A stretch of DNA of 64,000 nt, from NCBI GenBank assembly GCA_002786785.1, contig PCUD01000008.1, positions 212 to 64,211 of the forward strand, read 5' to 3'. The notes below the pieces were generated by a model that worked only from the letters and a program-made list of their open reading frames with translations, had not been told where the DNA came from and did no database searches. Numbering within the stretch: the first letter of the stretch is position 1; each line of letters starts with the position of its first letter. A program made the position numbers and the translations under genes. Source of the DNA: Ignavibacteriales bacterium CG18_big_fil_WC_8_21_14_2_50_31_20 (lineage in GTDB: Bacteria > Bacteroidota > Ignavibacteria > Ignavibacteriales > Melioribacteraceae). Positions 7,198-62,429 of this stretch are shown here, piece by piece.

Positions 7198-9534
7198 TTG
7201 AATAAAAAAAATATCCCCAATAAAATTGCATTTATAGGTGATTATTTACCCCGAAAGTGTGGTATTGCAACTTTTACATCCGATATATTTACAAGTATCA
7301 ATCTCCAATATCAAAAAAATAATTGCTTTGTAATTGCAGTTAATGATACAAAGGAAGGTTATAATTATCCCAATGAAGTTAAATTTGAAATTGAAGAACA
7401 AGAACTGGCTTCATATCAACGTGCTGCGGATTTTATCAATTTTAACAATATCGAAATTGTATCACTTCAGCACGAATTTGGAATTTATGGCGGTAAATCC
7501 GGAAGTCATATTCTTGCACTTTTAAGAGATTTGCATGTTCCGGTTGTAACTACGTTTCATACAATTTTAGAAAAACCAACACCTGAACAATTCTTAGTAA
7601 TGAAGGAAATTATTAAACTTTCTGCCCGTCTGGTTACAATGACGGAAAAAGGTAAATCTTTTCTTACAGAAATTTATAAAGCTCCGGTTGGAAAAATTGA
7701 TATTATTCCTCATGGAATTCCAGAGATGTCTTTTGTTGACCCTAATTTTTACAAGGACCAATTTGGAGTTGATGGAAAACAAGTGATCTTAACCTTTGGG
7801 CTTCTTTCTCCGCAAAAGGGGATTGAAAATGTTTTAAAAGCAATGCCTGAGGTTTTAAAAGAATTTCCAAATGTTGTATATGTAATTCTTGGAGCAACTC
7901 ATCCAAATCTTGTGAAGGAGCATGGAGAAATTTATAGAATGAGTCTTGAGCGGATGTCTGCTGATCTTGGAATTAAAAAGAATATAATATTTTATAACAG
8001 ATTTGTTGAATTAGAAGAACTAAAAGCTTTCATTGGAATGTGTGATATTTATATTACTCCATACATAAATAAAGCTCAAATAACTTCAGGAACACTTGCT
8101 TATGCTTTCGGCTGCGGGAAAAGTGTTATTTCTACACCTTACTGGCATGCAGAAGAGTTATTAGCGGAAGGAAGAGGAATTTTAGTTCCTTTCGCGGATT
8201 CAAAAGCTATTTCAACAGAAATAATTAGTTTATTGAAAGATGATAAACGCCGTCATGCAATGAGAAAAAAAGCTTACCTGCTTGGTCGTAAAATGATTTG
8301 GAGTGAAACAGCTAAAATATATTTGGATTCATTTAAAAAAGCTAGGCTTCCCAAAAATGAAAAATATTCCCGAATATTTGCTGTAAAAACGCTTGAAGAA
8401 AAAAGGGAAGAACTTCCCAAGATTAAATTAAATCATTTAATCAGAATGACAGATTCAACAGGTTTATATCATCATGCAATTGGTTCAATCCCTAATTATT
8501 CCGAAGGCTATTGTACTGACGATAACGCAAGAGCTCTTTTGCTTTCAGTTCTACTTGAGGAAACATATCCAGATAATGAAATAATTCAGGATTTATCTAG
8601 CCGTTATTCTGCTTTTGTTAACTATGCTTTTGATAAAAAAACTAAGCGCTTTAGAAATTTTATGAGCTATGATAGAAAATGGATTGAAGATGAGGGTTCC
8701 GATGATTGCCAAGGTAGATCAATTTGGGCTTTGGGAACTTGTGCAGGCAGATCAAAATTCCCTAATTTCCATATGTGGGGAACACAATTATTTAACCAAG
8801 CTATTAATTCAGCAGAAACTTTAACTTCGCCTCGTGCATGGGCTTTTTCTTTATTAGGCATAAATGAATATTTTAGAAGAATGAGCGGTGACACAATTGC
8901 CAGTCAGGTGAGAGATACACTAACAAACCGTTTGACAAAACTTTATGATTCTGTCGCCGAGGATGAATGGTTTTGGTTTGAAGATATTTTATCTTATGAT
9001 AACGCTGTAATTCCTCGTGCCTTAATTGTAAGTGGACAGTGGACAGAAAATGAGAAAGCTTTTGACATTGGATTGAAATCCTTACGTTGGCTTTTAAAAA
9101 TACAAACTACGGAACATGGTAATTTTAGACCAATAGGTTCTAATGGATTTTATCGAAAAGGTGGCAACAGAGCAAAATTTGATCAGCAACCTATTGAAGC
9201 CTATTCAATGCTTACAGCCTGTTTAGAAGCTACACGAGCAACCGATGATAAATTTTGGCTTGAATCTGCCAGAATGATTTTCGAATGGTTTTTAGGCAGA
9301 AATGATCTTGAAATTCCTCTTTATAACACAAAGACTGGCGGGTGCCACGATGCACTTCATGTTGACAGAATAAACCAAAATCAGGGCGGCGAATCGACAC
9401 TTGCCTTTTTACTATCTTTAGTCGAAATGCGCATTATGGAAAATTCTTTTCGTTCATTTAAAAGGCTCAAAGGTCTTGAACATCTTGAAAATTTAATTGA
9501 AAAACAAATAGTGGATAAACATGAAAGTAATTAG
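7198..9534 (+). CDS. Fusion protein: N-terminal GT4 (group 1) glycosyltransferase plus a C-terminal (alpha/alpha)-barrel-like domain of unknown function
   Basis: TTG start. The N-terminus IAFIGDYLPRKCGIATFTSD and the later E-x7-E-like region (TSGTLAYAFGCGKSVISTPYWHAEELL) are typical of GT4 enzymes. The C-terminal ~340 aa share motifs with the lipoprotein at 11892-13172 (CTDDNARALL, GGESTLAFLLSLVEM). No signal peptide. Confidence 0.7.
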   Translation: MNKKNIPNKIAFIGDYLPRKCGIATFTSDIFTSINLQYQKNNCFVIAVNDTKEGYNYPNEVKFEIEEQELASYQRAADFINFNNIEIVSLQHEFGIYGGKSGSHILALLRDLHVPVVTTFHTILEKPTPEQFLVMKEIIKLSARLVTMTEKGKSFLTEIYKAPVGKIDIIPHGIPEMSFVDPNFYKDQFGVDGKQVILTFGLLSPQKGIENVLKAMPEVLKEFPNVVYVILGATHPNLVKEHGEIYRMSLERMSADLGIKKNIIFYNRFVELEELKAFIGMCDIYITPYINKAQITSGTLAYAFGCGKSVISTPYWHAEELLAEGRGILVPFADSKAISTEIISLLKDDKRRHAMRKKAYLLGRKMIWSETAKIYLDSFKKARLPKNEKYSRIFAVKTLEEKREELPKIKLNHLIRMTDSTGLYHHAIGSIPNYSEGYCTDDNARALLLSVLLEETYPDNEIIQDLSSRYSAFVNYAFDKKTKRFRNFMSYDRKWIEDEGSDDCQGRSIWALGTCAGRSKFPNFHMWGTQLFNQAINSAETLTSPRAWAFSLLGINEYFRRMSGDTIASQVRDTLTNRLTKLYDSVAEDEWFWFEDILSYDNAVIPRALIVSGQWTENEKAFDIGLKSLRWLLKIQTTEHGNFRPIGSNGFYRKGGNRAKFDQQPIEAYSMLTACLEATRATDDKFWLESARMIFEWFLGRNDLEIPLYNTKTGGCHDALHVDRINQNQGGESTLAFLLSLVEMRIMENSFRSFKRLKGLEHLENLIEKQIVDKHESN

Positions 9535-10969
9535 AACCGATGTAGTAATTAAACCTGATTATAAGAGAGTTCTCTACAGACCTTTTACAATTGTGTCTGA
9601 GGAAAGAATAACAAAAATTATTGGAAGAATTCTTACCCTTTCTGAGGCTGAAGTTAAAAACGAACTTAATCAGGTAATCACGGAATTTGAAGAACGCCAT
9701 CAAAGGCTTCGTAAATTTTATTTAAATAGATTTGAGCAAATGAAAAAATATTTGCTAACGGATAAACAACTTAGTAATGATAGGAAATTATTAATTGGTG
9801 CATATTTTACACAAGAATATTCATTAGAATCAGCTGCACTTTTTAATCCGTCAATGGTATGGCATCCAGATCAATCAAATCTTGCAGAGGGAAGTCGTCG
9901 TTTTATTTTAAGTTTAAGGGCAACCGGAGAGGGACATATATCATCAATAACTTTTAGGTCAGGAGTTATTGATAAGGGAAATAATATTAATATTGATATT
10001 CCTAGTAGATATGTAACTACCTCTGAAAATATTTCAAATCAGATTTTTGAAAAAGCACTTTTTGAAAGAAAGTTAATTGAACTTGATTTGTTAACTGATT
10101 TTGCTCAAAAAGTAATTGACAGCCTGGATGAAAATTTTAGTTTTATTAATCTTGAAGAGACTATAAAAATTTTATTGCGTACCTTTAGAAAAAATGGTTT
10201 AGAGATTGAGTTGACCTCAAGGGCGATTTTATCATTGGCACTATCAAATTATGAAATTCAATACAATTCTGATCAAAGACTTTCTGAACGAGTAATATTT
10301 CCTCATTCACCTTCGGAAATGAATGGAATTGAGGATGCTCGTTTTGTAGAATTTATTGATGAAAATGGACAAAAAACTTATTATGCAACTTATACAGCAT
10401 ATGATGGAAAAGTCATTTTTCCACAACTTCTTGAGACTAAAGATTTTTTAAATTTTAAGATAAGTACATTAAATGGTCCTGAAGTAAAGAATAAAGGAAT
10501 GGCACTTTTTCCAAGGAAAATTAATGGACTTTACGCAATGATCTCAAGGCAGGATAATGAAAATATATTTTTAATGTACTCTGAGCATCTTCATTTCTGG
10601 TATACAAAACAGATAATTCTAAAACCAACTTATCCATGGGAATTTGTGCAACTGGGCAATTGTGGCTCTCCAATAGAAACTGAAGCTGGTTGGTTAGTAT
10701 TAAGTCATGGTGTTGGAGCAATGCGGGAATATTCAATGGGTGCATTTTTATTAGATAAAGATGATCCATCTAAAGTTATTGGTAGATTAAAGGAGCCTTT
10801 GCTCACGCCAAATGAAAATGAAAGAGAGGGATATGTCCCTAATGTGGTTTATAGTTGCGGTGGTGCTATCCATGATGATGAACTTATTATCCCTTATGCT
10901 ATGTCAGATCATGCAAGTAGCATCGCAAAGGTGAATGTTAAAGAATTAATTGATGAAATGATAAAATAA
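9521..10969 (+). CDS. Long GH130-family (beta-mannoside phosphorylase-like) protein with a ~260-aa N-terminal extension
   Basis: Overlaps the upstream gene by 14 nt. The C-terminal half (GIEDARFVEF...YYATYTAYDG...FPRKINGLYAM...GWLVLSHGVG...YSMGAFLLD...PNVVYSCG) matches the GH130 five-bladed propeller pattern. Confidence 0.65.
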   Translation: MKVIRTDVVIKPDYKRVLYRPFTIVSEERITKIIGRILTLSEAEVKNELNQVITEFEERHQRLRKFYLNRFEQMKKYLLTDKQLSNDRKLLIGAYFTQEYSLESAALFNPSMVWHPDQSNLAEGSRRFILSLRATGEGHISSITFRSGVIDKGNNINIDIPSRYVTTSENISNQIFEKALFERKLIELDLLTDFAQKVIDSLDENFSFINLEETIKILLRTFRKNGLEIELTSRAILSLALSNYEIQYNSDQRLSERVIFPHSPSEMNGIEDARFVEFIDENGQKTYYATYTAYDGKVIFPQLLETKDFLNFKISTLNGPEVKNKGMALFPRKINGLYAMISRQDNENIFLMYSEHLHFWYTKQIILKPTYPWEFVQLGNCGSPIETEAGWLVLSHGVGAMREYSMGAFLLDKDDPSKVIGRLKEPLLTPNENEREGYVPNVVYSCGGAIHDDELIIPYAMSDHASSIAKVNVKELIDEMIK

Positions 10970-10979
10970 TATAGGCGAT

Positions 10980-11882
10980 ATGAAAATGATTAGATATGAA
11001 AATAATCCTGTTCTTGTAAAAGAAGATGTCCCTTTCAAGGTGAATAGTATTTTTAATCCTGGGGCTATTAAGTATAATGATGAATATTTATTAATGTGCA
11101 GAGTAGAAATGCCAATCGGAAGATCTTCATTTCTCATTGCCCGAAGCAAAGATGGTTTTAGTTTTAAGTTGGATACTAAACCAATTTTAACTCCAGAAGA
11201 TCACAAGGACTGCTATGAGTATGTAAATTGGGGTATTGAAGATGCTAGGATAACTAGCATTGATAATAAATATTATTTAACGTATACCGGATATTCAAAA
11301 TATAAACCTGTTGTAATTTTGGCAGAAACCGAAAATTTTAAAACATATAAAATTCTTGGACCTATTTCTGAAGCTTCGAACAAAGATTGTTCTATATTTC
11401 CAGAAAAAATTGATGGATATTATTGGAAGGTAGATAGACCTGAAGCTGAAGAACGTAGGGATATCTGGATAAGTAAAAGTCCGGATTTAATTCATTGGGG
11501 TGAATATTCTGTTTTAATGGAGCCTGATAAAGGGACATGGGAAGATAACAAAATTGGTGCCTCTACACCTCCTATAAAAACGAAAGATGGATGGTTAATG
11601 TTATATCATGGAGTAAGGGGATTTGGTATATCATCTTTGTATAAACTCGGAGTTGTTTTGCTTGATTTGAATAATCCAAGAATTGTAAAAGGTAAAAGTA
11701 AAGAACCAATACTTTCTCCAGAAATGGATTATGAAAGAGTTGGAGATGTTGGGAACGTTGTATTCTCTAATGGTTGGATTAAGGAAGATAATGATGATCT
11801 TAAAATTTACTACTCGGGTGCTGATATGAATGTTTGCGTTGCAGAGACTTCCATTGATAAACTTGTTGCATTATGTAAATAA
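10980..11882 (+). CDS. GH130-family glycoside phosphorylase/hydrolase (short form)
   Basis: YENNPVL...FNPGAIKYNDEYLLMCRVE...GIEDARIT...YYLTYTGY...FPEKIDGYYW...GWLMLYHGV...YKLGVVLLDLNNP...NVVFSNG are classic GH130 blocks. No signal peptide. Confidence 0.8.
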   Translation: MKMIRYENNPVLVKEDVPFKVNSIFNPGAIKYNDEYLLMCRVEMPIGRSSFLIARSKDGFSFKLDTKPILTPEDHKDCYEYVNWGIEDARITSIDNKYYLTYTGYSKYKPVVILAETENFKTYKILGPISEASNKDCSIFPEKIDGYYWKVDRPEAEERRDIWISKSPDLIHWGEYSVLMEPDKGTWEDNKIGASTPPIKTKDGWLMLYHGVRGFGISSLYKLGVVLLDLNNPRIVKGKSKEPILSPEMDYERVGDVGNVVFSNGWIKEDNDDLKIYYSGADMNVCVAETSIDKLVALCK

Positions 11883-11891
11883 GGTGCTTTT

Positions 11892-13172
11892 ATGAAACAA
11901 AAATATATTATTCATATTATTTTACTAATTGTTATAACTTTTGTCTCATGCAACAGTAAGAGTAGCAATTATTCAAGAAGTAATACATCTCACTTGGATC
12001 ATCTCTATGAGGAAATACAAGTTGATGGAACTGAGATGGCTATTATTCATATTTACAGTGAATATCCTGACTATCATTATGTCGGTGCTGAAAATGAAGG
12101 TGTTGCATGTGTTGATGATGTAGCACGTGCTTTAGTCCTTTACGTTAAGGACTTTGAATATAATGGAAATGTAGAATCTTTAAGAAAGTCAAAACAACTT
12201 GCAAAATTTATTATCTACATGGAAGCAGAAGATTCCACCTATTATAACTTTGTTTTTGAAGATGGGAAAATTAATAAAACCTTTAGAACAAGTATTTCTG
12301 GTTTTCAATGGTGGATGTGGAGAGCTTTATGGGCATTAGGTGAAGCTTATCCAACAATTAAAAATGATGATGAAGTTTTAGCAAGCGAAATGTTGAAATT
12401 ACTAGATAATGGATTTAGCAAAACAATAAAGCATTATAAAATTTCTGATTTAACTGATTCTGAAAATGGAATAACTTTCCCGAATTGGCTGCCAGGTGAA
12501 TCTGGTATTGACCAAACAGCAGTTTTAATTATGGGTTTATCCTCCTACTATAAAATCAATAAAAGTGATGATGTTTTAAAATTAATTAATGAATTAAGTA
12601 ATAGTGTTTTAACTGTTCAGATTGGGTCAAATGACAACTATCCTTATGGAGCATTTTTAAGTTGGAGAAATGTATGGCACGCTTGGGGTAATTTACAAAG
12701 TTATTCTCTTTTAAAATCTTATGAGATAAATATGGATGAGAAATATCTTAACGCTGCACTTCAAGAAATAAATGGATTTTATAAATACCTAAATGACAAT
12801 AAATATTATAATGAAATATTCTTCAAAAATAATAATGGTCTTATAGAAGACATTTCAAAAAGTAAATATCCCCAAATTGCTTATGGAATAAGACCAATGG
12901 TTTATGCTTGTCTAGAAGCTTATAAAATAACGAATGATGAAAAGTATGCCATACAAGCTGGAAATATTGCACAATGGTTGTTTGGTGATAATGATTTAGG
13001 AAAGTCTCTTTACAATAGTGAAACTGGAATTTGTTTTGACGGTATTTCATTGGAAGACCAAATAAATATGAATTCCGGTGCTGAGTCAACGATTGAAGCG
13101 CTATTATCACTACTGGAAATTGAACAAAACCAAGTTGCAAAAAAATCTTTAATGGAATATATAAATAAGTGA
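11892..13172 (+). CDS. Lipoprotein of unknown function, paralogous to the C-terminal domain of the GT4 fusion
   Basis: Lipobox LLIVITFVSC. Motifs CVDDVARALVLYV, WRALWALGEAY and SGAESTIEALLSLLEIE align with 7198-9534 residues ~410-745. Confidence 0.6.
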   Translation: MKQKYIIHIILLIVITFVSCNSKSSNYSRSNTSHLDHLYEEIQVDGTEMAIIHIYSEYPDYHYVGAENEGVACVDDVARALVLYVKDFEYNGNVESLRKSKQLAKFIIYMEAEDSTYYNFVFEDGKINKTFRTSISGFQWWMWRALWALGEAYPTIKNDDEVLASEMLKLLDNGFSKTIKHYKISDLTDSENGITFPNWLPGESGIDQTAVLIMGLSSYYKINKSDDVLKLINELSNSVLTVQIGSNDNYPYGAFLSWRNVWHAWGNLQSYSLLKSYEINMDEKYLNAALQEINGFYKYLNDNKYYNEIFFKNNNGLIEDISKSKYPQIAYGIRPMVYACLEAYKITNDEKYAIQAGNIAQWLFGDNDLGKSLYNSETGICFDGISLEDQINMNSGAESTIEALLSLLEIEQNQVAKKSLMEYINK

Positions 13173-56390: not shown

Positions 56391-56445
56391 AAATCCAACA
56401 ACTTTTTAATAAAATACTTTTTAGTTGTTGGATTTATCTTTTTAT
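56391..56445 (+). terminator. Rho-independent terminator closing the EPS/sensor gene string
   Basis: aaatccaacaact-19 nt loop-agttgttggattt (13-bp stem) followed by atcttttt. Confidence 0.7.
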
Positions 56446-56536: not shown

Positions 56537-56562
56537 TTATACCATACAAATGTATGGTATAA
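56537..56562. promoter_or_regulatory. Perfect 26-bp palindrome (12-bp arms, 2-bp spacer) 19 nt upstream of lexA; candidate LexA operator
   Basis: The sequence ttataccataca-aa-tgtatggtataa was checked base by base, and every position pairs. Confidence 0.55.
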
Positions 56563-57752: not shown

Positions 57753-57776
57753 TGTCATTCCCGCGAAGGCGGGAAT
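57753..57776 (+). repeat. 24-nt hairpin-forming repeat tgtcattcccgcgaaggcgggaat (left arm flanking the GIY-YIG gene)
   Basis: The internal stem is attcccgc-gaag-gcgggaat. Its exact reverse complement occurs at 58105-58128. Confidence 0.85.
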
Positions 57777-57802: not shown

Positions 57803-58096
57803 ATGAAAAACTATTATGTTTATATTCTAGCAAGCAAAAAAGATGGTGTCATTTATATCGGTGTAACTAACGATTTAATTCGTCGTGTGTATGAACATAA
57901 AAATAAACTTATAGATGGTTTTACGAAGAAATACAATGTTAATAAATTAGTTTACTATGAAATTTGCAGAAATGTTAATGAAGCAATAAAAAGAGAAAAG
58001 CAAATGAAAAAATGGTTAAGAGAGTGGAAAACAAATTTGATTGAGGAGAATAATACATTGTGGAATGATTTGTACGCAGAGTTAACTGGTCAGTAA
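57803..58096 (+). CDS. Small GIY-YIG nuclease-family protein (URI domain, UPF0213-like)
   Basis: YVYILASKKDGVIYIGVTNDLIRRVYEHK contains GIY-YIG motifs, with Arg and Glu downstream. Confidence 0.85.
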   Translation: MKNYYVYILASKKDGVIYIGVTNDLIRRVYEHKNKLIDGFTKKYNVNKLVYYEICRNVNEAIKREKQMKKWLREWKTNLIEENNTLWNDLYAELTGQ

Positions 58097-58669: not shown

Positions 58670-60034
58670 ATGGATTTTGAAGTAATTGTAATAGGAAGTG
58701 GGCCTGGTGGTGAAGGAGCTGCAATGAAAGCTGTTAAAGCTGGTAAAAAAGTTGCAATGTGTGATAGCTTTGCAAATATTGGAGGGAATTGTACACATAA
58801 AGGAACAATTCCGAGTAAAGCACTAAGACACGCTACACAGATACTTCAAAATAGAAATGATTTTCGGAACGTAAATTTTCAAGAAATGCTTTCAACCGCA
58901 GAAACAGTTATTAAAAGCCAAATGGATTTGCGAAAGGGTTTTTATATTCGTAACTGGGTGGATATTCTTGACGGTTCTGCTTCGTTTATTGATAAAAATA
59001 CGATTGTGGTGCATCATAGTACCGGTGAAATAAAGGAATATACTTCTGAGTATTTTATAATTGCAACTGGCTCACGTCCTTATCGTCCCGCCGATGTTGA
59101 CTTTTCACACCCAAGGATTGTTGATAGCGATACGGTTCTCGATTTACAAGGGCATCCACAATCAATTACAATTTATGGTGCTGGAGTTATTGGCTGTGAA
59201 TACGCATCTATTTTTAGAGGTTTGCGAACAAAAGTAAATCTAATTAATAATCGTGCTCAACTTTTGTCTTTTTTGGATGATGAAATTGTTGATGCACTTG
59301 CCTATCATTTACGTGAAAACGGTGTAATTATTCGCCATAATGAAGAATATGAAAAAGTTGAAGCTGATGACCATGGCGTAACAATTTATCTGAAATCTAA
59401 TAAAAAAATTAGGACTGATTATCTGCTTTGGGCACAAGGACGAACTGGAAATTCGGATAATATTGGACTTGATAAAATTGGTCTTGACGTTGATTACAAA
59501 GGCTCAATTCAAGTTAATGCAAATCATCAAACAAATATTCCACATATTTATGCAGTAGGAGATATTGTTGGTTATCCAAGTTTGGCTAGTGCTTCATATG
59601 ATCAAGGTAGATTTGCTGCCTCACATCTTGTTGAAGGGAAAAACGATTATCATCTTGTGAAAAATATTCCAACTGGAATTTATACAGTTCCAGAAATTAG
59701 TTCAATTGGAAAAACAGAGAGGGAATTAACAGAGGAGAAAATTCCTTATGAAATAGGGCGCTCATTTTTTAAACATCTTGCTAGAGCTCAAATTACAGGG
59801 GATACTACTGGAGTTCTTAAAATTTTATTTCATCGAGAAACTTTTGAAATTCTTGGAATTCATTGCTTTGGAAATGGTGCTTCAGAAATTATTCATATTG
59901 GACAAGCAATTATGTCGCAACCAGCTGAACATAATAATCTAATGTACTTTGTAAATACAACATTCAACTACCCAACAATGGCTGAAGCCTACCGCGTTGC
60001 AGCTTTGAATGGTTTGAATAGGGTGGAAGAGTAA
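58670..60034 (+). CDS. sthA: Soluble pyridine nucleotide transhydrogenase (Si-specific)
   Basis: [15 protein letters not shown] and [18 protein letters not shown] (single Cys followed by Thr, as in SthA, not a disulfide pair). A second NAD(P) fold is [13 protein letters not shown]. The C-terminal dimerisation domain contains [11 protein letters not shown]. Confidence 0.8.
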
Positions 60035-60083
60035 AAAATGGAAAAAATTATTAATTCATAATTATTAATGGAGGGGATATCTA

Positions 60084-61178
60084 ATGGCAAAGCAATTTTT
60101 TACGGAACCATTTGATGATGGTACAAAGATTAAGTTAGAAATATTTAGAAGATATTTAGAGTCATGGTTACCTACTTTTACAAAGGCCAAAGAAGTACAT
60201 TGGAAAAATATTTTTATATACGATCTATTTGCTGGTGTTGGCAAGGACAGTGATGGAAATTATGGTAGTCCATTGTTAATTGTTGAAGAACTTAAAAGAC
60301 ATTATAATGCTATTCGTGAGAATGATTTAAATATACATATTGTATTTAATGATTTAGAAAAAGATAATATACAAAAACTTGAATCTGAAGTAAATGTAAT
60401 AGCTCCTAAAAGACCATATAGTATAAAATATTATAATAAAGATTTTAAAGAACTATTTAATGAGTTATTTCCAAAGATGTTAACTCATAGTCAAGAGCCT
60501 ATGTTATTCTTTTGTGATCAGTTTGGAATAAAACATATTACTGAAGAAGTTTTCAATAAAATTCTTAAATTGAAAAGAACAGATTTACTATTTTTTATTT
60601 CTTCTTCTTTTGTTAAACGATTTTCTGAGTTAAATGAATTTCAGAAGTATCTTCAAATTCAAAAGGAGGTTTTTAACGATGCCAGGCCATTTCATAGCCA
60701 TCGAATTGTATTTCAATATTATCAGAATATGGTACCTGAAGATAAGGAGTATTATTTGGCACCATTTTCAATTCAAAAAGGGAAAAATATATATGGACTA
60801 ATATTTGGTTCAAACCATACTTTAGGAATAGAAAAATTTCTTAATATTGGTTGGAAGTTAAATTCAAATTCAGGCGATGCAAATTTCAATATTGATGAGG
60901 AAAAAATAGCAGTTGGGGAATTAGATTTGTTTGAAAGTTTTAATGTACCTAAAAAATGCCAGCTATTTGAAAAGGAACTTTGGGATAATATTTTAAATAG
61001 AAAAATAATTTCTAAGAAACAATTATATTCTTTTACCTTTAATTTTGGATGTTTACCGAAGCATGCTAATTCAGTAATAAATAAATTAGTTAATGATGAA
61101 AAAATTGGGATACTTAAATTATCCTCGCAAAGAATTCATAGTTTAAATGACGAAAAGATTGAGGTATTAAATGAATAA
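60084..61178 (+). CDS. tcmP: Three-Cys-motif partner protein TcmP-like
   Basis: The N-terminal block is TKIKLEIFRRYLESWLPTF. It is followed by IYDLFAGVGKDS (60222-60242), which resembles SAM-methyltransferase motif I. It is paired with and overlaps the DUF5131 gene. A strong SD (ggagggg) lies upstream. Confidence 0.6.
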   Translation: MAKQFFTEPFDDGTKIKLEIFRRYLESWLPTFTKAKEVHWKNIFIYDLFAGVGKDSDGNYGSPLLIVEELKRHYNAIRENDLNIHIVFNDLEKDNIQKLESEVNVIAPKRPYSIKYYNKDFKELFNELFPKMLTHSQEPMLFFCDQFGIKHITEEVFNKILKLKRTDLLFFISSSFVKRFSELNEFQKYLQIQKEVFNDARPFHSHRIVFQYYQNMVPEDKEYYLAPFSIQKGKNIYGLIFGSNHTLGIEKFLNIGWKLNSNSGDANFNIDEEKIAVGELDLFESFNVPKKCQLFEKELWDNILNRKIISKKQLYSFTFNFGCLPKHANSVINKLVNDEKIGILKLSSQRIHSLNDEKIEVLNE

Positions 61179-61920
61179 AACTAAAATAGAATGGACAGAA
61201 GAAACTTGGAATCCTACAACAGGCTGTACCAAAGTAAGTGCTGGTTGTAAGAATTGTTACGCTGAAGCTATGGCAAACAGATTAAAAGCTATGGGGGCAC
61301 CTGGTTATGAAAATGGATTCGAATTTTCAATTCTACCAGAAAGACTTGAGCAACCATTAAAAAAGAAAAAACCAACTAAATATTTTGTTAACTCTATGAG
61401 TGATTTATTTTATGAAGATATGCCGGATAGTTATTTGGATGACATTTTTAATATTATTGAGAAAACACCTCAGCACATCTATCAAATATTGACAAAACGG
61501 GAAGACCGAATGTCTGAATATTTTAGGAAAAAGTCTATTCCAAAAAATATTTGGTTAGGTGTAACCTCGGAGAACAGAAAAAATGGTTTACCTAGAATTG
61601 ATAAACTGAGAAACTTGAAAGCCACGATTAAATTTATATCTATTGAACCTTTATTAGAAGATCTAGGGAAAATTAATTTAGCTGGTATAGATTGGGTGAT
61701 TGTTGGAGGTGAAAGTGGTCCAAAAGCACGCCCAATGAAAGAAGTGTGGGCTGTCAATATAAAAAGACAATGTGAAGAACAAAATGTAGCTTTCTTTTTT
61801 AAGCAGTGGGGAACTTGGGGTTCTGATGGAGTAAAAAGAAATAAAAAATCTAATGGTCGTATTTTATTGGGTAAAGAGTGGAGTGAATATCCAGAATATG
61901 AACTAAATGTAGCTATTTAG
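61171..61920 (+). CDS. DUF5131 (phage Gp37/Gp68-family) three-Cys protein
   Basis: KIEWTEETWNPTTGCTKVSAGCKNCYAE carries C-x6-C-x2-C (Cys codons 61225, 61246, 61255). Also present are VNSMSDLF, ILTKR, WLGVTSEN, ISIEPLLE, WVIVGGESGP and FFFKQWG. It overlaps tcmP by 8 nt. Confidence 0.75.
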   Translation: MNKTKIEWTEETWNPTTGCTKVSAGCKNCYAEAMANRLKAMGAPGYENGFEFSILPERLEQPLKKKKPTKYFVNSMSDLFYEDMPDSYLDDIFNIIEKTPQHIYQILTKREDRMSEYFRKKSIPKNIWLGVTSENRKNGLPRIDKLRNLKATIKFISIEPLLEDLGKINLAGIDWVIVGGESGPKARPMKEVWAVNIKRQCEEQNVAFFFKQWGTWGSDGVKRNKKSNGRILLGKEWSEYPEYELNVAI

Positions 61921-61955: not shown

Positions 61956-62429
61956 GTGATGAAAGAAGGTTTAATTGAACAACTTAAAACACAAGAAAAA
62001 TTTTTCTTAAATACTGTTAGTGTTTTAACTGAAGAGGATTCAAGTTTCAAACCCAAGGAAGAAATGTACACTGTTGCACAGCAAGTTGCTCATGCCGCCG
62101 ATACAGTCAATTGGTTTTTAGAAGGTGCTTTTGGTAGTGCTGGTTTTGAAATGAATTTTGAAAAATATGATGAAAAAATGAAATCATTTAAATCATTTGA
62201 TGAATCCATTAAATACTTCAAAGATGAATTTGCAAAAGGTATTTCAAGATTGGAAGCTGTTGGAGATTCTGAATTAGTGGCTCCAATAAACGGACCTATT
62301 ATGACTGGTGCTCCTAAATTGGCTGTTGTGGGCGCAATAGCAGACCATACAGCACATCATAGAGGCTCATTAGCTGTTTATGCTCGCTTAATAGGCAAAG
62401 CACCTAAAATGCCATATGGTGAAATGTAA
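61956..62429 (+). CDS. DinB-family (four-helix bundle, metal-binding) protein
   Basis: The His triad pattern is QVAHAADT ... IADHTAHHRGSLAVYARL. An SD (aaggag) lies upstream. The start is GTG 61956 or ATG 61959. Confidence 0.7.
   Translation: MMKEGLIEQLKTQEKFFLNTVSVLTEEDSSFKPKEEMYTVAQQVAHAADTVNWFLEGAFGSAGFEMNFEKYDEKMKSFKSFDESIKYFKDEFAKGISRLEAVGDSELVAPINGPIMTGAPKLAVVGAIADHTAHHRGSLAVYARLIGKAPKMPYGEM

What the first reader, a model, noticed from the sequence alone, without database searches (positions are those of the whole stretch)
60084..61920. Translationally coupled TcmP plus DUF5131 (three-Cys) pair inserted between housekeeping genes: candidate nucleic-acid modification or defence module
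Seen: two genes overlap by 8 nt and sit between sthA and a DinB-family gene. The DUF5131 product carries C-x6-C-x2-C near its N-terminus (Cys codons 61225, 61246, 61255). The partner carries IYDLFAGVG, which resembles SAM-binding motif I of DNA methyltransferases. Established: the DUF5131 (phage Gp37/Gp68) and TcmP families are known to co-occur as a pair, and to my knowledge no biochemical function has been assigned. Inference: a non-canonical Fe-S (radical-SAM-like) enzyme working with a SAM-dependent partner would fit a DNA/RNA modification or anti-phage function. There are no phage structural or integrase genes here, so it is a stand-alone cellular module rather than a prophage remnant.
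Basis: partly seen in the sequence, partly recalled or inferred. Interest (0 to 1): 0.72.

Follow-up and report, generated by a model that had tools for sequence, protein, structure and literature searches.

The report
Swappable methylase plus radical-SAM accessory pair
Two overlapping genes, a methyltransferase-like protein (TcmP) and a radical-SAM-like three-cysteine enzyme (DUF5131), form a mobile accessory module already listed as the untested anti-phage candidate PDC-M30; it is a real and typical member of that pair, and its chemistry is still unknown.

Summary
TcmP (60084-61178) and DUF5131 (61171-61920) overlap by 8 nt between sthA and a DinB_2 gene. The C-x6-C-x2-C and IYDLFAGVG motifs lie where stated, and both family assignments are strong.

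The defence or modification idea is reasonable but not new: both proteins match PADLOC's unvalidated candidate PDC-M30 (A and B). No published function was found.

New here:
- **Accessory status.** The closest relative (SthA 99% identical) has an empty sthA-dinB site. Other relatives carry AbiL, a ZorD/DpdE-like helicase, toxin-antitoxin genes or a PDC-S01-like gene in slots of the same lexA-ogt-yjbQ-sthA-DUF72 cluster.
- **Unequal evolution.** DUF5131 is highly conserved and TcmP is hypervariable (mean identity 57% against 24% over 64 pairs). In one relative, at the same site, DUF5131 is 92% identical and TcmP only about 26-30%.
- **What stays fixed in TcmP.** Almost nothing but SAM motif I and a D-x-[FY]-G motif IV.
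- **Recurrent link to S24/LexA-type repressors and mobile elements.**

Best reading (inferred, about 0.45): a conflict module in which variable TcmP picks a nucleic-acid target and methylates it, and conserved DUF5131 does radical chemistry on it. It is a new member of a known, uncharacterised kind. Interest is moderate.

The parts
60071..60077 (+). Shine-Dalgarno-like GGAGGGG before tcmP
   Evidence: Read directly from the sequence. The position is conserved in L003 and L005.
60084..61178 (+). tcmP: three-Cys-motif partner protein (PDC-M30A), 364 aa. It has a class I SAM-methyltransferase fold plus a C-terminal winged helix.
   Evidence: TIGR04474 E=1.6e-46. PADLOC PDLC04568 E=2.3e-126. AlphaFold2 model pLDDT 85. 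Foldseek matches are all SAM methyltransferases, such as Trm1, TrmK, Trm5a and KsgA.
60216..60248 (+). SAM-binding motif I, IYDLFAGVGKD (residues 45-55)
   Evidence: D47 and G51 are invariant, F49 is at 91% and G53 at 89% across 64 divergent TcmPs.
60516..60533 (+). Motif IV-like DQFGIK (residues 145-150); reads DPYG in the L094 variant
   Evidence: D145 is invariant and G148 is at 86% across 64 TcmPs. L094 has FIDPYGYK at the same place.
60924..61106 (+). C-terminal winged helix-turn-helix (GMT-wHTH-like), residues about 281-341
   Evidence: PF22560 E=0.0011, below cut-off in this protein but precomputed on most homologues. The model shows a helical bundle at residues 290-337 after a disordered linker at 266-287.
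61171..61178 (+). 8-nt overlap ATGAATAA (DUF5131 start and tcmP stop), suggesting translational coupling
   Evidence: Relatives mostly overlap by 4 nt (ATGA).
61171..61920 (+). DUF5131 / phage Gp37-Gp68 family protein (PDC-M30B), 249 aa; radical-SAM superfamily subgroup
   Evidence: PF07505 E=2.4e-106. PADLOC PDLC04569 E=4.4e-117. TIGR04471 E=1.3e-29, below cut-off. PHROG 2045.
61225..61257 (+). C19-x6-C26-x2-C29, the presumed [4Fe-4S] ligands
   Evidence: The same spacing occurs in 66 of 66 relatives matched by the pattern, including two phage proteins, and also in phiE125 gp37. Each Cys is at least 95% conserved.
58670..60034 (+). sthA, the left flank of the insertion slot
   Evidence: NF003585 E=2e-205. 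It is 99.1% identical in L093, where dinB2 follows directly.
61956..62429 (+). DinB_2-family gene, the right flank; itself variable among relatives
   Evidence: PF12867 E=1.7e-12. No DinB2-like ORF was detected between sthA and DUF72 in L095 and L096.

Best explanation
The two genes are one accessory, horizontally exchanged two-subunit module of the PDC-M30 type. It works on nucleic acid (DNA most likely) in conflicts with phages and other mobile elements.

**Roles of the two subunits**
- TcmP is the fast-evolving, swappable subunit. Its class I SAM-methyltransferase core keeps only the SAM-binding motif I and a D-x-[FY]-G catalytic motif. Variable inserts and a C-terminal winged helix choose the target.
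- DUF5131 is the slow-evolving catalytic subunit. It would bind a [4Fe-4S] cluster through C-x6-C-x2-C and cleave SAM to a 5'-deoxyadenosyl radical.

**Proposed mechanism**
TcmP binds a specific site and methylates, or at least presents, a base. DUF5131 then performs radical chemistry on that same nucleotide. The result is either a new modification or a lesion that marks or disables foreign DNA.

**Shown here**
- Family membership.
- The fold of TcmP.
- Conservation of the motifs.
- Pairing of the two genes.
- Accessory, hotspot status.
- Decoupled evolution of the two partners.

**Inferred**
- Fe-S binding and SAM cleavage.
- A nucleic-acid substrate.
- The order of the two steps.
- The anti-phage role.
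For: **Candidate status**
- Both proteins match PADLOC candidate PDC-M30 A and B (E=2e-126 and 4e-117). PMC10855318 describes this as an unvalidated 'guilt-by-embedding' candidate, present in 32 of 100 P. aeruginosa strains.

**Pairing**
- TcmP-like genes lie adjacent in 67 of 82 DUF5131 loci, in three different orientations.

**Accessory status**
- L093 (SthA 99.1% identical, flanks about 95% nt identity) has sthA directly followed by dinB2.
- Other slots of the same cluster hold other cargo:
  - AbiLi/AbiLii in L005.
  - A ZorD/DpdE-like SNF2 helicase plus ParE toxin-antitoxin genes in L093.
  - A PDC-S01-like gene in L098.
  - A PIN-domain gene in L100.

**Decoupled evolution**
- Over 64 pairs, mean identity is 57% for DUF5131 and 24% for TcmP. 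TcmP is the more conserved partner in only 0.25% of 2016 comparisons, and the rank correlation is 0.08.
- At the same site in L094, DUF5131 is 92.4% identical and TcmP only about 26-30%, matching a different PADLOC sub-model.

**Conserved chemistry**
- The positions conserved in at least 80% of the 64 TcmPs are essentially motifs I and IV.
- C-x6-C-x2-C was invariant in every relative checked.

**Mobility**
- 438 plasmid records (163 conjugative) and 180 phage records carry DUF5131.
- In Gordonia phage Easley, tcmP lies directly downstream of the immunity repressor, between integrase and repressor.
- Integrase- or resolvase-bearing islands occur in L091, L092 and L173.

**Neighbours**
- The commonest Pfam families among 140 neighbouring proteins were ResIII, N6_N4_Mtase, Peptidase_S24, Methylase_S, Eco57I and RVT_1.
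- In S. meliloti, tcmP is listed in a putative operon with the defence gene hna (PMC12445080).

**Precedent**
- Enzymes of the neighbouring radical-SAM clusters act on DNA: spore photoproduct lyase, and phage M6 gp53 (PMC9477430 and PMC8989533).
Against: - No experiment supports any step, and no paper assigns a function (7 literature searches).
- The DUF5131 model is mediocre (pLDDT 66). Foldseek gave no match below E=1e-3, only a TIM-barrel-like resemblance, with the radical-SAM enzyme SuiB at TM 0.45.
- The Cys spacing is not the canonical CX3CX2C.
- TcmP's closest folds are RNA rather than DNA methyltransferases, with TM of only 0.3-0.4.
- There is no nuclease or other obvious effector.
- Defence enrichment among neighbours was not tested against a control. 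Many neighbours are housekeeping genes, and L090 shows an ordinary context.
- About 9% of DUF5131 genes, and most phage copies, lack TcmP. DUF5131 can therefore act without it.
- Links to LexA/S24 and to MMC induction fit a DNA-damage role equally well.
Confidence: 0.45

Rival explanations
1. DNA-damage repair or tolerance module. DUF5131 would reverse or process a DNA lesion by radical chemistry, as spore photoproduct lyase does. TcmP would be a DNA-binding, base-presenting helper. Expression would be tied to the SOS response.
For: - The pair sits in a lexA-ogt-yjbQ-sthA-dinB-DUF72 cluster in at least five Ignavibacteriales contigs. L001 adds a WYL regulator, a Y-family polymerase and DnaE2-like genes.
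- An S24 peptidase gene overlaps the DUF5131 start by 4 nt in Betaproteobacteria (L022, L025, L031, L174).
- An SRAP gene lies next to the pair in L092.
- The phiE125 record notes that gp37 is similar to M. tuberculosis Rv2734. Rv2734 is mitomycin-induced together with Rv2735c, recX and recA (PMC5057432).
- DUF5131 is in the same radical-SAM megacluster as spore photoproduct lyase.
Against: - The pair is absent from the closest relative, which has the same flanks.
- The same cluster is a hotspot for Abi, toxin-antitoxin and helicase cargo, so linkage to lexA may be incidental.
- A hypervariable, swap-prone partner is not expected for repair of a chemically fixed lesion.
- The only LexA-box-like palindrome in the window is at lexA itself, and a terminator-like hairpin follows ogt.
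- The pair is carried widely on plasmids and in prophage lysogeny modules.
Confidence: 0.15
2. Restriction-modification analogue. TcmP would methylate host DNA at its recognition sites for self-protection and recruit DUF5131 to unmethylated foreign DNA. DUF5131 would damage that DNA by hydrogen abstraction, acting as a radical 'restriction' subunit. The pattern would resemble Type III Mod (variable) and Res (conserved).
For: - The variable methyltransferase and conserved partner mirror the Mod/Res or HsdS/HsdR pattern.
- The catalytic methyltransferase motifs are the only parts of TcmP kept throughout the family.
- Tight coupling, with the methyltransferase gene first in most loci.
- Restriction-modification genes and SF2 helicases are frequent neighbours.
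Against: - No radical-SAM enzyme is known to act as a restriction effector.
- Solo DUF5131 genes are common in phages and in some genomes.
- Gene order is reversed (DUF5131 first) in 14 of the 82 loci (13 of them adjacent), and the genes are on opposite strands in 7 (6 adjacent).
- No interaction data exist.
Confidence: 0.12
3. Counter-defence or self-marking by mobile elements. The chemistry is the same two-step modification, but its purpose is to protect the carrier's DNA (plasmid, prophage or phage) from host restriction rather than to defend the cell.
For: - DUF5131 is common in phages (180 records). There it sits among early or DNA-metabolism genes, for example in TChen next to an ATPase, an HNH endonuclease and a DNA methyltransferase.
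- It is on 438 plasmids.
- L092 has ArdC antirestriction genes nearby.
- The module has no effector gene.
Against: - In this window the pair is chromosomal, with no mobile-element genes nearby.
- TcmP is rare in phages: 7 records, only 6 of them Gordonia phages.
- In Easley, tcmP lies immediately downstream of the immunity repressor on the same strand, which suggests expression in the lysogen. That fits prophage-encoded defence better.
Confidence: 0.12
4. Antiviral small-molecule synthesis, on the viperin model. DUF5131 would convert a free nucleotide into a chain terminator or signal, and TcmP would methylate the substrate or product.
For: - Radical-SAM defence enzymes exist. Prokaryotic viperins are known from my own knowledge, and the Ophion system is reported in bioRxiv 10.1101/2025.09.30.679545.
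- TcmP's fold also resembles small-molecule methyltransferases; histamine N-methyltransferase was the top hit.
Against: - A hypervariable partner with a winged helix argues for recognition of a macromolecule.
- There is no kinase or nucleotide-metabolism partner.
- There is no similarity to the viperin or Ophion architectures.
Confidence: 0.05

Closest known systems
PADLOC phage-defence candidate PDC-M30 (A = TcmP, B = DUF5131) and its sister PDC-M41
   Same: Both window proteins match the A and B models end to end (E=2e-126 and 4e-117) and are adjacent. The DUF5131 also fits PDC-M41B almost equally well. Short TcmP variants in other loci are PDC-M41A.
   Different: Nothing structural differs. 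PDC-M30 is only a computational candidate with no validated activity (PMC10855318). This copy is chromosomal, in an uncultured Ignavibacteriales bacterium.
[quoted passage not shown]
   Same: Both scores are above the curated cut-offs. The gene pair is adjacent and the three-Cys motif is present.
   Different: Neither family has an assigned function. Many phage DUF5131 genes have no TcmP.
Radical SAM superfamily: RadicalSAM.org Megacluster-5 (DUF5131 = 5-2, MJ0683-like = 5-1, spore photoproduct lyase = 5-3) and NCBIfam TIGR04471 'radical SAM mobile pair protein A'
   Same: Three N-terminal cysteines are followed by an alternating strand-helix core. TIGR04471 matches at E=1.3e-29 over residues 17-212. 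DUF5131 is listed as a radical-SAM subgroup (PMC9477430).
   Different: The spacing is C-x6-C-x2-C, not CX3CX2C. The score is below the TIGR04471 cut-off. The fold match to solved radical-SAM enzymes is weak. No solved relative exists.
Type III (Mod/Res) and Type I (HsdS/HsdM/HsdR) restriction-modification systems
   Same: A variable, specificity-bearing methyltransferase-type subunit is paired with a conserved catalytic partner. Both show cassette-like exchange and mobile, island-associated distribution.
   Different: There is no nuclease or helicase domain. The partner is a radical-SAM-like enzyme. No methylation or restriction has been shown.
Trm5 then TYW1 in wybutosine synthesis, and phage M6 gp53 in thymidine hypermodification
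   Same: These are precedents for a methyltransferase followed by a radical-SAM enzyme on one nucleic-acid base, and for a radical-SAM enzyme installing a DNA modification (PMC8989533). Trm5a and Trm1 are among TcmP's fold matches.
   Different: There is no sequence-level relationship to TYW1 or gp53. The substrate here is unknown. The wybutosine analogy comes from my general knowledge, not from a test.

Membership tests
Pfam PF07505 DUF5131 (phage Gp37/Gp68) | Full-length HMM match above the gathering score | tested here: met
   355.1 bits against 28.9; residues 3-241 cover profile positions 1-243 of 243.
Pfam PF07505 DUF5131 (phage Gp37/Gp68) | N-terminal three-Cys motif | tested here: met
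   C19-x6-C26-x2-C29; the same spacing occurs in 66 of 66 relatives.
NCBIfam TIGR04474 TcmP | HMM score above the curated cut-off | tested here: met
   159.4 bits against 53.
NCBIfam TIGR04474 TcmP | Encoded next to a three-Cys-motif (DUF5131) protein | tested here: met
   8-nt overlap in the window. Adjacent in 67 of 82 loci.
PADLOC PDC-M30 | Adjacent genes matching the A and B models | tested here: met
   PDLC04568 E=2.3e-126 and PDLC04569 E=4.4e-117.
PADLOC PDC-M30 | Confers resistance to phage | not testable with these tools
   No experimental validation was found for any member.
Radical SAM superfamily | Canonical CX3CX2C cluster motif | tested here: not met
   The spacing is C-x6-C-x2-C. 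Non-canonical spacings are accepted in this curated subgroup.
Radical SAM superfamily | Partial or full TIM-barrel fold like solved members | tested here: inconclusive
   Model pLDDT 66 with a strand-helix core. Best Foldseek E=6e-3. SuiB TM 0.45 and RlmN TM 0.34.
Radical SAM superfamily | [4Fe-4S] cluster and reductive SAM cleavage | not testable with these tools
   Needs anaerobic purification, UV-vis/EPR and a 5'-deoxyadenosine assay.
Class I SAM-dependent methyltransferases | Rossmann-like seven-strand fold | tested here: met
   Model pLDDT 85. There are 78 PDB matches at E<=1e-3, and all 50 listed are methyltransferases. The viral library agrees.
Class I SAM-dependent methyltransferases | Glycine-rich motif I and an acidic or aromatic motif IV | tested here: met
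   D47-x-F49-x-G51-x-G53 and D145-x-x-G148 are the best-conserved positions across 64 TcmPs.
Class I SAM-dependent methyltransferases | Methyl transfer to a defined substrate | not testable with these tools
   The substrate is unknown.
Restriction-modification systems | A nuclease (or helicase-nuclease) partner of the methyltransferase | tested here: not met
   No nuclease or helicase domain occurs in either protein or in the adjacent genes.
Spore photoproduct lyase-type DNA repair enzymes | Sequence or structural match to spore photoproduct lyase | tested here: not met
   No PDB match by sequence or by profile. Spore photoproduct lyase is not among the 50 Foldseek matches listed. The only link is membership of the same megacluster.
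Prophage or integrative element | Integrase, structural or replication genes, or flanking repeats | tested here: not met
   None between 38 kb and 64 kb of the window. No convincing flanking repeats.

The most novel reading that the evidence does not exclude
TcmP and DUF5131 would form a restriction-modification-like system built on radical chemistry. Interchangeable TcmP subunits would set the sequence specificity. A single conserved radical-SAM subunit would then either install a previously unknown DNA base hypermodification on the TcmP-marked site, or act as the first radical-based 'restriction' enzyme against unmarked DNA.
Probability: 0.2. Interest if true: 0.85.

Novelty: new member of a known kind. 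Interest (0 to 1): 0.45.

Why it matters
DUF5131 is a large, very widespread radical-SAM subgroup with no known reaction:
- at least 583 genome loci across many phyla carry it;
- so do 438 plasmid and 180 phage records.

If the pair modifies or damages nucleic acid, it would add new SAM-radical chemistry to DNA or RNA biology, and possibly a new defence principle.

The most useful result here is a design for experiments. At one and the same chromosomal site, nature has paired a nearly identical DUF5131 with two TcmPs that are only 26-30% identical. That predicts TcmP sets the specificity, which can be tested directly by swapping TcmPs and reading out modification motifs or phage range.

This particular copy, from an uncultured Ignavibacteriales bacterium, is not special among thousands of others. 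Pseudomonas aeruginosa copies would be easier to study.

Tried and rejected
1. **Conserved member of an SOS regulon.** Four related contigs first suggested this. I dropped it as the main reading for three reasons:
   - A 99%-SthA relative has an empty site, and the cluster proved to be a cargo hotspot.
   - The LexA-box-like palindrome TACCATACAAATGTATGGTA occurs only upstream of lexA.
   - A terminator-like hairpin follows ogt.
2. **Promoter scan.** The sigma-70 scan found no more sites than shuffled sequence, so it says nothing. This organism may use another promoter type.
3. **Transposition signature.** No convincing direct or inverted repeats flank the pair. Only an AT-rich TTATTAAT-like string recurs at both junctions, which may be chance in DNA of about 30% GC.
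4. **Solved structures.** None was found by sequence or by profile for either protein.
5. **DUF5131 fold search.** Inconclusive, because model confidence was low in the Cys loop.
6. **Alternative partners.**
   - phiE125 gp38 and TChen gp65, the genes upstream of phage DUF5131, are not TcmP.
   - The seven genomic loci with no TcmP despite upstream sequence have no recurrent substitute. The apparent N-terminal extensions there are ORF-calling artefacts.
7. **Published systems checked and excluded.**
   - Ophion (radical SAM + PHP + PRTase) has a different architecture.
   - Phage M6 gp53 is spore-photoproduct-lyase-like, not DUF5131.
   - The Dnd paper has no relevant content.
8. **Neighbour enrichment.** It could only be counted as the commonest families among 140 neighbours. 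No per-protein table or control was available, so no statistic is claimed.
Full report
**1. The observation**

The window has two same-strand ORFs: 60084..61178 (364 aa) and 61171..61920 (249 aa).
- They share ATGAATAA, so the second gene's ATG lies 8 nt inside the first.
- GAGG sits 6 nt upstream of that ATG, and GGAGGGG precedes the first gene.
- The downstream protein reads TTGC19TKVSAGC26KNC29YAE.
- IYDLFAGVG is residues 45-53 of the upstream protein.

The family assignments are not marginal.
- PF07505 (DUF5131): E=2.4e-106, full length.
- TIGR04474 (TcmP): E=1.6e-46, three times the cut-off.

The flanks, all on the + strand with short gaps, are LexA, Ogt, a small GIY-YIG gene, YjbQ/UPF0047 and SthA upstream, and DinB_2 and DUF72 downstream. 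The ORFs checked between 38 kb and 64 kb encode glycosyl hydrolase and transferase, TPR, KaiC-like and kinase proteins. None is an integrase or a phage structural protein. An identical TcmP is on record from an Ignavibacteriales metagenome-assembled genome.

**2. It is already a catalogued candidate**

Both proteins match PADLOC's 'phage defence candidate' PDC-M30, components A and B (E=2.3e-126 and 4.4e-117). PMC10855318 describes these PDC entries as unvalidated 'guilt-by-embedding' predictions. It reports PDC-M30 in 32 of 100 P. aeruginosa strains, 68.8% of them in the phage-resistant group.

Seven full-text searches found no paper that assigns a function to TcmP or DUF5131. The terms included DUF5131, PDC-M30, TcmP, PF07505, TIGR04474, Gp37Gp68 and radical SAM plus defence. 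RadicalSAM.org lists DUF5131 as an uncharacterised radical-SAM subgroup (Megacluster-5-2), next to MJ0683-like (5-1) and spore photoproduct lyase (5-3).

**3. What the two proteins are**

*TcmP.* An AlphaFold2 model built from 31 homologues is confident (pLDDT 85).
- It shows an alternating strand-helix Rossmann core (about residues 40-260), a disordered linker (266-287) and a C-terminal helical bundle. The bundle corresponds to the weak GMT-wHTH match (PF22560).
- Foldseek against the PDB returns only SAM-dependent methyltransferases: histamine N-methyltransferase, Trm1, TrmK, Trm5a, METTL16 and KsgA (E from 3e-6 to 5e-4, TM 0.3-0.4).
- The viral library gives the same kind of matches.

*DUF5131.* The model is weaker (pLDDT 66).
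- The Cys loop is unmodelled, as expected without a cluster. The strand-helix core gives only TIM-barrel-like matches, and SuiB has the highest query TM-score among those listed (0.45, E=0.02).
- Homology to radical SAM therefore rests on the TIGR04471 match (E=1.3e-29, below that model's equivalog cut-off) and on curated classification.
- No relative of either protein has a solved structure.

**4. The pairing is real and flexible**

A scan of one genome per species found at least 583 DUF5131 loci. They span Bacteroidota, Pseudomonadota, Nitrospirota, Planctomycetota, Acidobacteriota, Spirochaetota, Thermotogota and others. Identity reaches 79% outside the phylum, a sign of horizontal transfer.

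I called ORFs and searched them with an iterated TcmP profile. Of 82 loci:

| TcmP-like gene | Loci |
|---|---|
| Adjacent, upstream on the same strand | 48 |
| Adjacent, downstream on the same strand | 13 |
| Adjacent, on the opposite strand | 6 |
| Present but more than 100 nt away | 2 |
| None, although upstream sequence was available | 7 |
| None, contig too short to tell | 6 |

A link kept through three orientations points to function rather than to a frozen operon.

**5. It is an accessory insertion in a hotspot**

I fetched 80 metagenome contigs encoding close SthA relatives and labelled their genes.

| Contig | SthA identity to window | What lies at the slot |
|---|---|---|
| L093 | 99.1% (flanks about 95% nt) | sthA, a 62-nt spacer, dinB2, DUF72; no pair |
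| L094 | 93% | the pair, at the same place |
| L003 and L005 | 91% and 87% | the pair, at the same place |
| L095 and L096 | 92-93% | sthA directly followed by DUF72 |
| L098 | 81% | a PDC-S01-like AAA_14/DUF4143 gene plus two ORFs |

Other slots of the same cluster also hold variable cargo:
- L093 carries a 1074-aa SNF2/SWIM helicase (best PADLOC matches DpdE and ZorD), a 272-aa ORF and a ParE toxin-antitoxin pair between yjbQ and sthA.
- L005 carries AbiLi/AbiLii between ogt and yjbQ.
- L100 has a PIN gene after sthA.
- The window has a GIY-YIG gene, and L003 a 23S_rRNA_IVP gene.

The site is a recurrent landing place for defence-type and selfish cargo. This overturned my interim idea, based, that the pair is a conserved member of an SOS cluster.

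I found no integrase and no convincing flanking repeats. Exchange by recombination through the conserved flanks is the simplest route; that is inference. The tcmP region is also lower in G+C than sthA (0.26-0.27 against 0.34-0.36).

**6. The two partners evolve in opposite ways**

Identities to the window proteins at the same chromosomal slot:

| Contig | DUF5131 | TcmP |
|---|---|---|
| L094 | 92.4% | 26-30% (a different PADLOC sub-model, PDLC04566 rather than PDLC04568) |
| L003 | 89.6% | 80.1% |

The nucleotide alignment between the window and L094 breaks exactly over tcmP.

Across 64 pairs (2016 comparisons):
- Mean identity is 57% for DUF5131 and 24% for TcmP.
- TcmP is the more conserved partner in 0.25% of comparisons.
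- The rank correlation between the two is 0.08.

Besides the start methionine, only these TcmP positions are kept in at least 80% of the 64 sequences: K17, Y24, D47, F49, G51, G53, G61, S62, L99, D145 and G148.
- That amounts to motif I (D-x-F-x-G-x-G) and a motif IV-like D-x-[FY]-G. The latter reads DQFG here and DPYG in L094.
- The least conserved stretches are residues 101-140, 181-220 and the whole C-terminal linker plus winged helix.

DUF5131 keeps 68 positions at 95% or more, including all three cysteines. The C-x6-C-x2-C spacing is present in every sequence examined.

The plain reading is that SAM chemistry is the constant function of TcmP, while everything that could recognise a target is free to change or be swapped. 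DUF5131 is a constrained catalytic core. From my own knowledge, Trm1 and the amino-methyltransferases use D-P-[FY]-type motif IV. That would suggest N-methylation of an exocyclic amine, but it is a lead, not a test.

**7. Wider context**

*Defence or mobile settings*
- L002: the pair is followed by a ResIII/UvrD_C helicase and DUF2290.
- L091: integrase, ResIII helicase, AAA_24 and a large deaminase.
- L092: resolvase, Abi_alpha, HNH, ArdC, and SRAP next to the pair.
- L025: a PRTase-CE/wHTH gene and a reverse transcriptase immediately downstream.
- A P. aeruginosa plasmid: integrase, then DUF5131, then TcmP.
- S. meliloti: tcmP is listed with the defence gene hna in a putative operon.
- Gordonia phage Easley: tcmP lies directly downstream of the immunity repressor, between integrase and repressor, with DUF5131 convergent. 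From my own knowledge, that is the slot where temperate actinophages keep lysogen-expressed defence genes.
- The commonest Pfam families among 140 immediate neighbours from 47 loci were ResIII (4), N6_N4_Mtase (3), Peptidase_S24 (3), then Methylase_S, Eco57I, RVT_1 and A_deaminase (2 each). The rest were single housekeeping hits. This is suggestive but uncontrolled.

*DNA-damage flavour*
- An S24 peptidase gene overlaps the DUF5131 start in Betaproteobacteria. I saw it in L022, L025 and L031, and independently in the RefSeq annotation of a Comamonas plasmid.
- The phiE125 record says gp37 resembles M. tuberculosis Rv2734. Rv2734 is mitomycin-induced together with recX and recA.

*Ordinary settings also exist* (L090).

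In phages, 180 records carry DUF5131 but only 7 carry a detectable TcmP, 6 of them Gordonia phages.

**8. Most likely mechanism**

Shown:
- Membership of the two families.
- The methyltransferase fold.
- Motif conservation.
- Pairing.
- Accessory, hotspot status.
- Decoupled evolution.
- Mobility.

Inferred: TcmP binds SAM and a specific nucleic-acid site through its variable parts and methylates or presents a base. DUF5131 binds a [4Fe-4S] cluster through the three cysteines, cleaves SAM and performs radical chemistry on that nucleotide. The outcome serves conflict with phages or other mobile elements.

I put about 0.45 on this composite. The rivals are:

| Rival | Confidence | Main point |
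|---|---|---|
| SOS-linked DNA repair | 0.15 | Supported by the LexA/S24/Rv2734 links. Weakened by the empty site and the hypervariable partner. |
| Restriction-modification analogue with a radical 'restriction' subunit | 0.12 | Fits the Mod/Res-like evolutionary pattern, but has no precedent. |
| Self-protective modification by mobile elements | 0.12 | Same chemistry, opposite purpose. |
| Viperin-like small-molecule synthesis | 0.05 | A variable winged-helix partner argues against it. |

**9. Verdict**

The finding is real and correctly interpreted as a candidate. It is a typical member of an already catalogued, uncharacterised pair. Its value lies in the family's unknown chemistry and in the natural TcmP swap, which gives a clean experimental design. 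The copy itself is not unusual.

Noticed in passing
window 56540-56559: A near-perfect palindrome, TACCATACAAATGTATGGTA (9-nt arms, 2-nt centre), ends 21 nt upstream of the lexA start. It is conserved upstream of lexA in L003 and L005 and occurs only once in the window. It is probably the LexA operator of this lineage.
   Followed up: partly
window 57803-58096: A small GIY-YIG gene (97 aa) lies between ogt and yjbQ. Relatives carry different cargo in or near this slot: 23S_rRNA_IVP in L003, AbiLi/AbiLii in L005 and PDDEXK_3 in L001. This slot is therefore also variable.
   Followed up: partly
window 57757-57776: A GC-rich hairpin followed by a T-run lies just after ogt. It suggests that lexA-ogt is a separate two-gene transcript.
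   Followed up: no
window 56393-56433: An inverted repeat, ATCCAACAAC ... GTTGTTGGAT, lies between the hybrid histidine kinase gene and lexA. It is probably the kinase gene's terminator.
   Followed up: no
L094 7388-9318: At the same sthA-dinB2 slot, DUF5131 is 92% identical to the window protein while TcmP is only 26-30% identical and matches another PADLOC sub-model. This is a natural swap of the partner gene.
   Followed up: yes
L093 1348-5974: The closest relative lacks the pair. Between yjbQ and sthA it carries a 1074-aa SNF2/SWIM helicase (best PADLOC matches DpdE and ZorD), a 272-aa ORF with no family match, and an antitoxin plus ParE pair.
   Followed up: partly
L022, L025 and L031 (about 9280-12110); L174 5354-7745: In Betaproteobacteria the order is S24 peptidase, DUF5131, TcmP, with the S24 stop overlapping the DUF5131 start. 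This looks like a three-gene variant that may be induced by DNA damage. In L025 it is followed by a PRTase-CE/wHTH gene and a reverse transcriptase.
   Followed up: partly
L087 (Gordonia phage Easley) 3986-6477: The full pair sits in the lysogeny module. tcmP (gp39) lies directly downstream of the immunity repressor (gp40) on the same strand, and DUF5131 (gp38) is convergent, next to a metalloprotease, an HTH gene and the integrase.
   Followed up: partly
window 61956-62429; L095 and L096: No DinB2-like ORF was detected between sthA and DUF72 in relatives L095 and L096, where only a 28-nt gap separates the two genes. dinB2 may therefore be accessory cargo of the same slot rather than a fixed housekeeping gene.
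   Followed up: no
window 1-56000: 36 of the 38 ORFs of at least 120 aa are on the + strand, an unusually uniform orientation over 56 kb.
   Followed up: no
L001 6685-18287: In a more distant Ignavibacteriae genome the same cluster also holds a WYL/HTH regulator, a GyrI-like gene, a Y-family polymerase, an IS200-like transposase and split DnaE2-like polymerase genes. Together these form a larger DNA-damage island.
   Followed up: no
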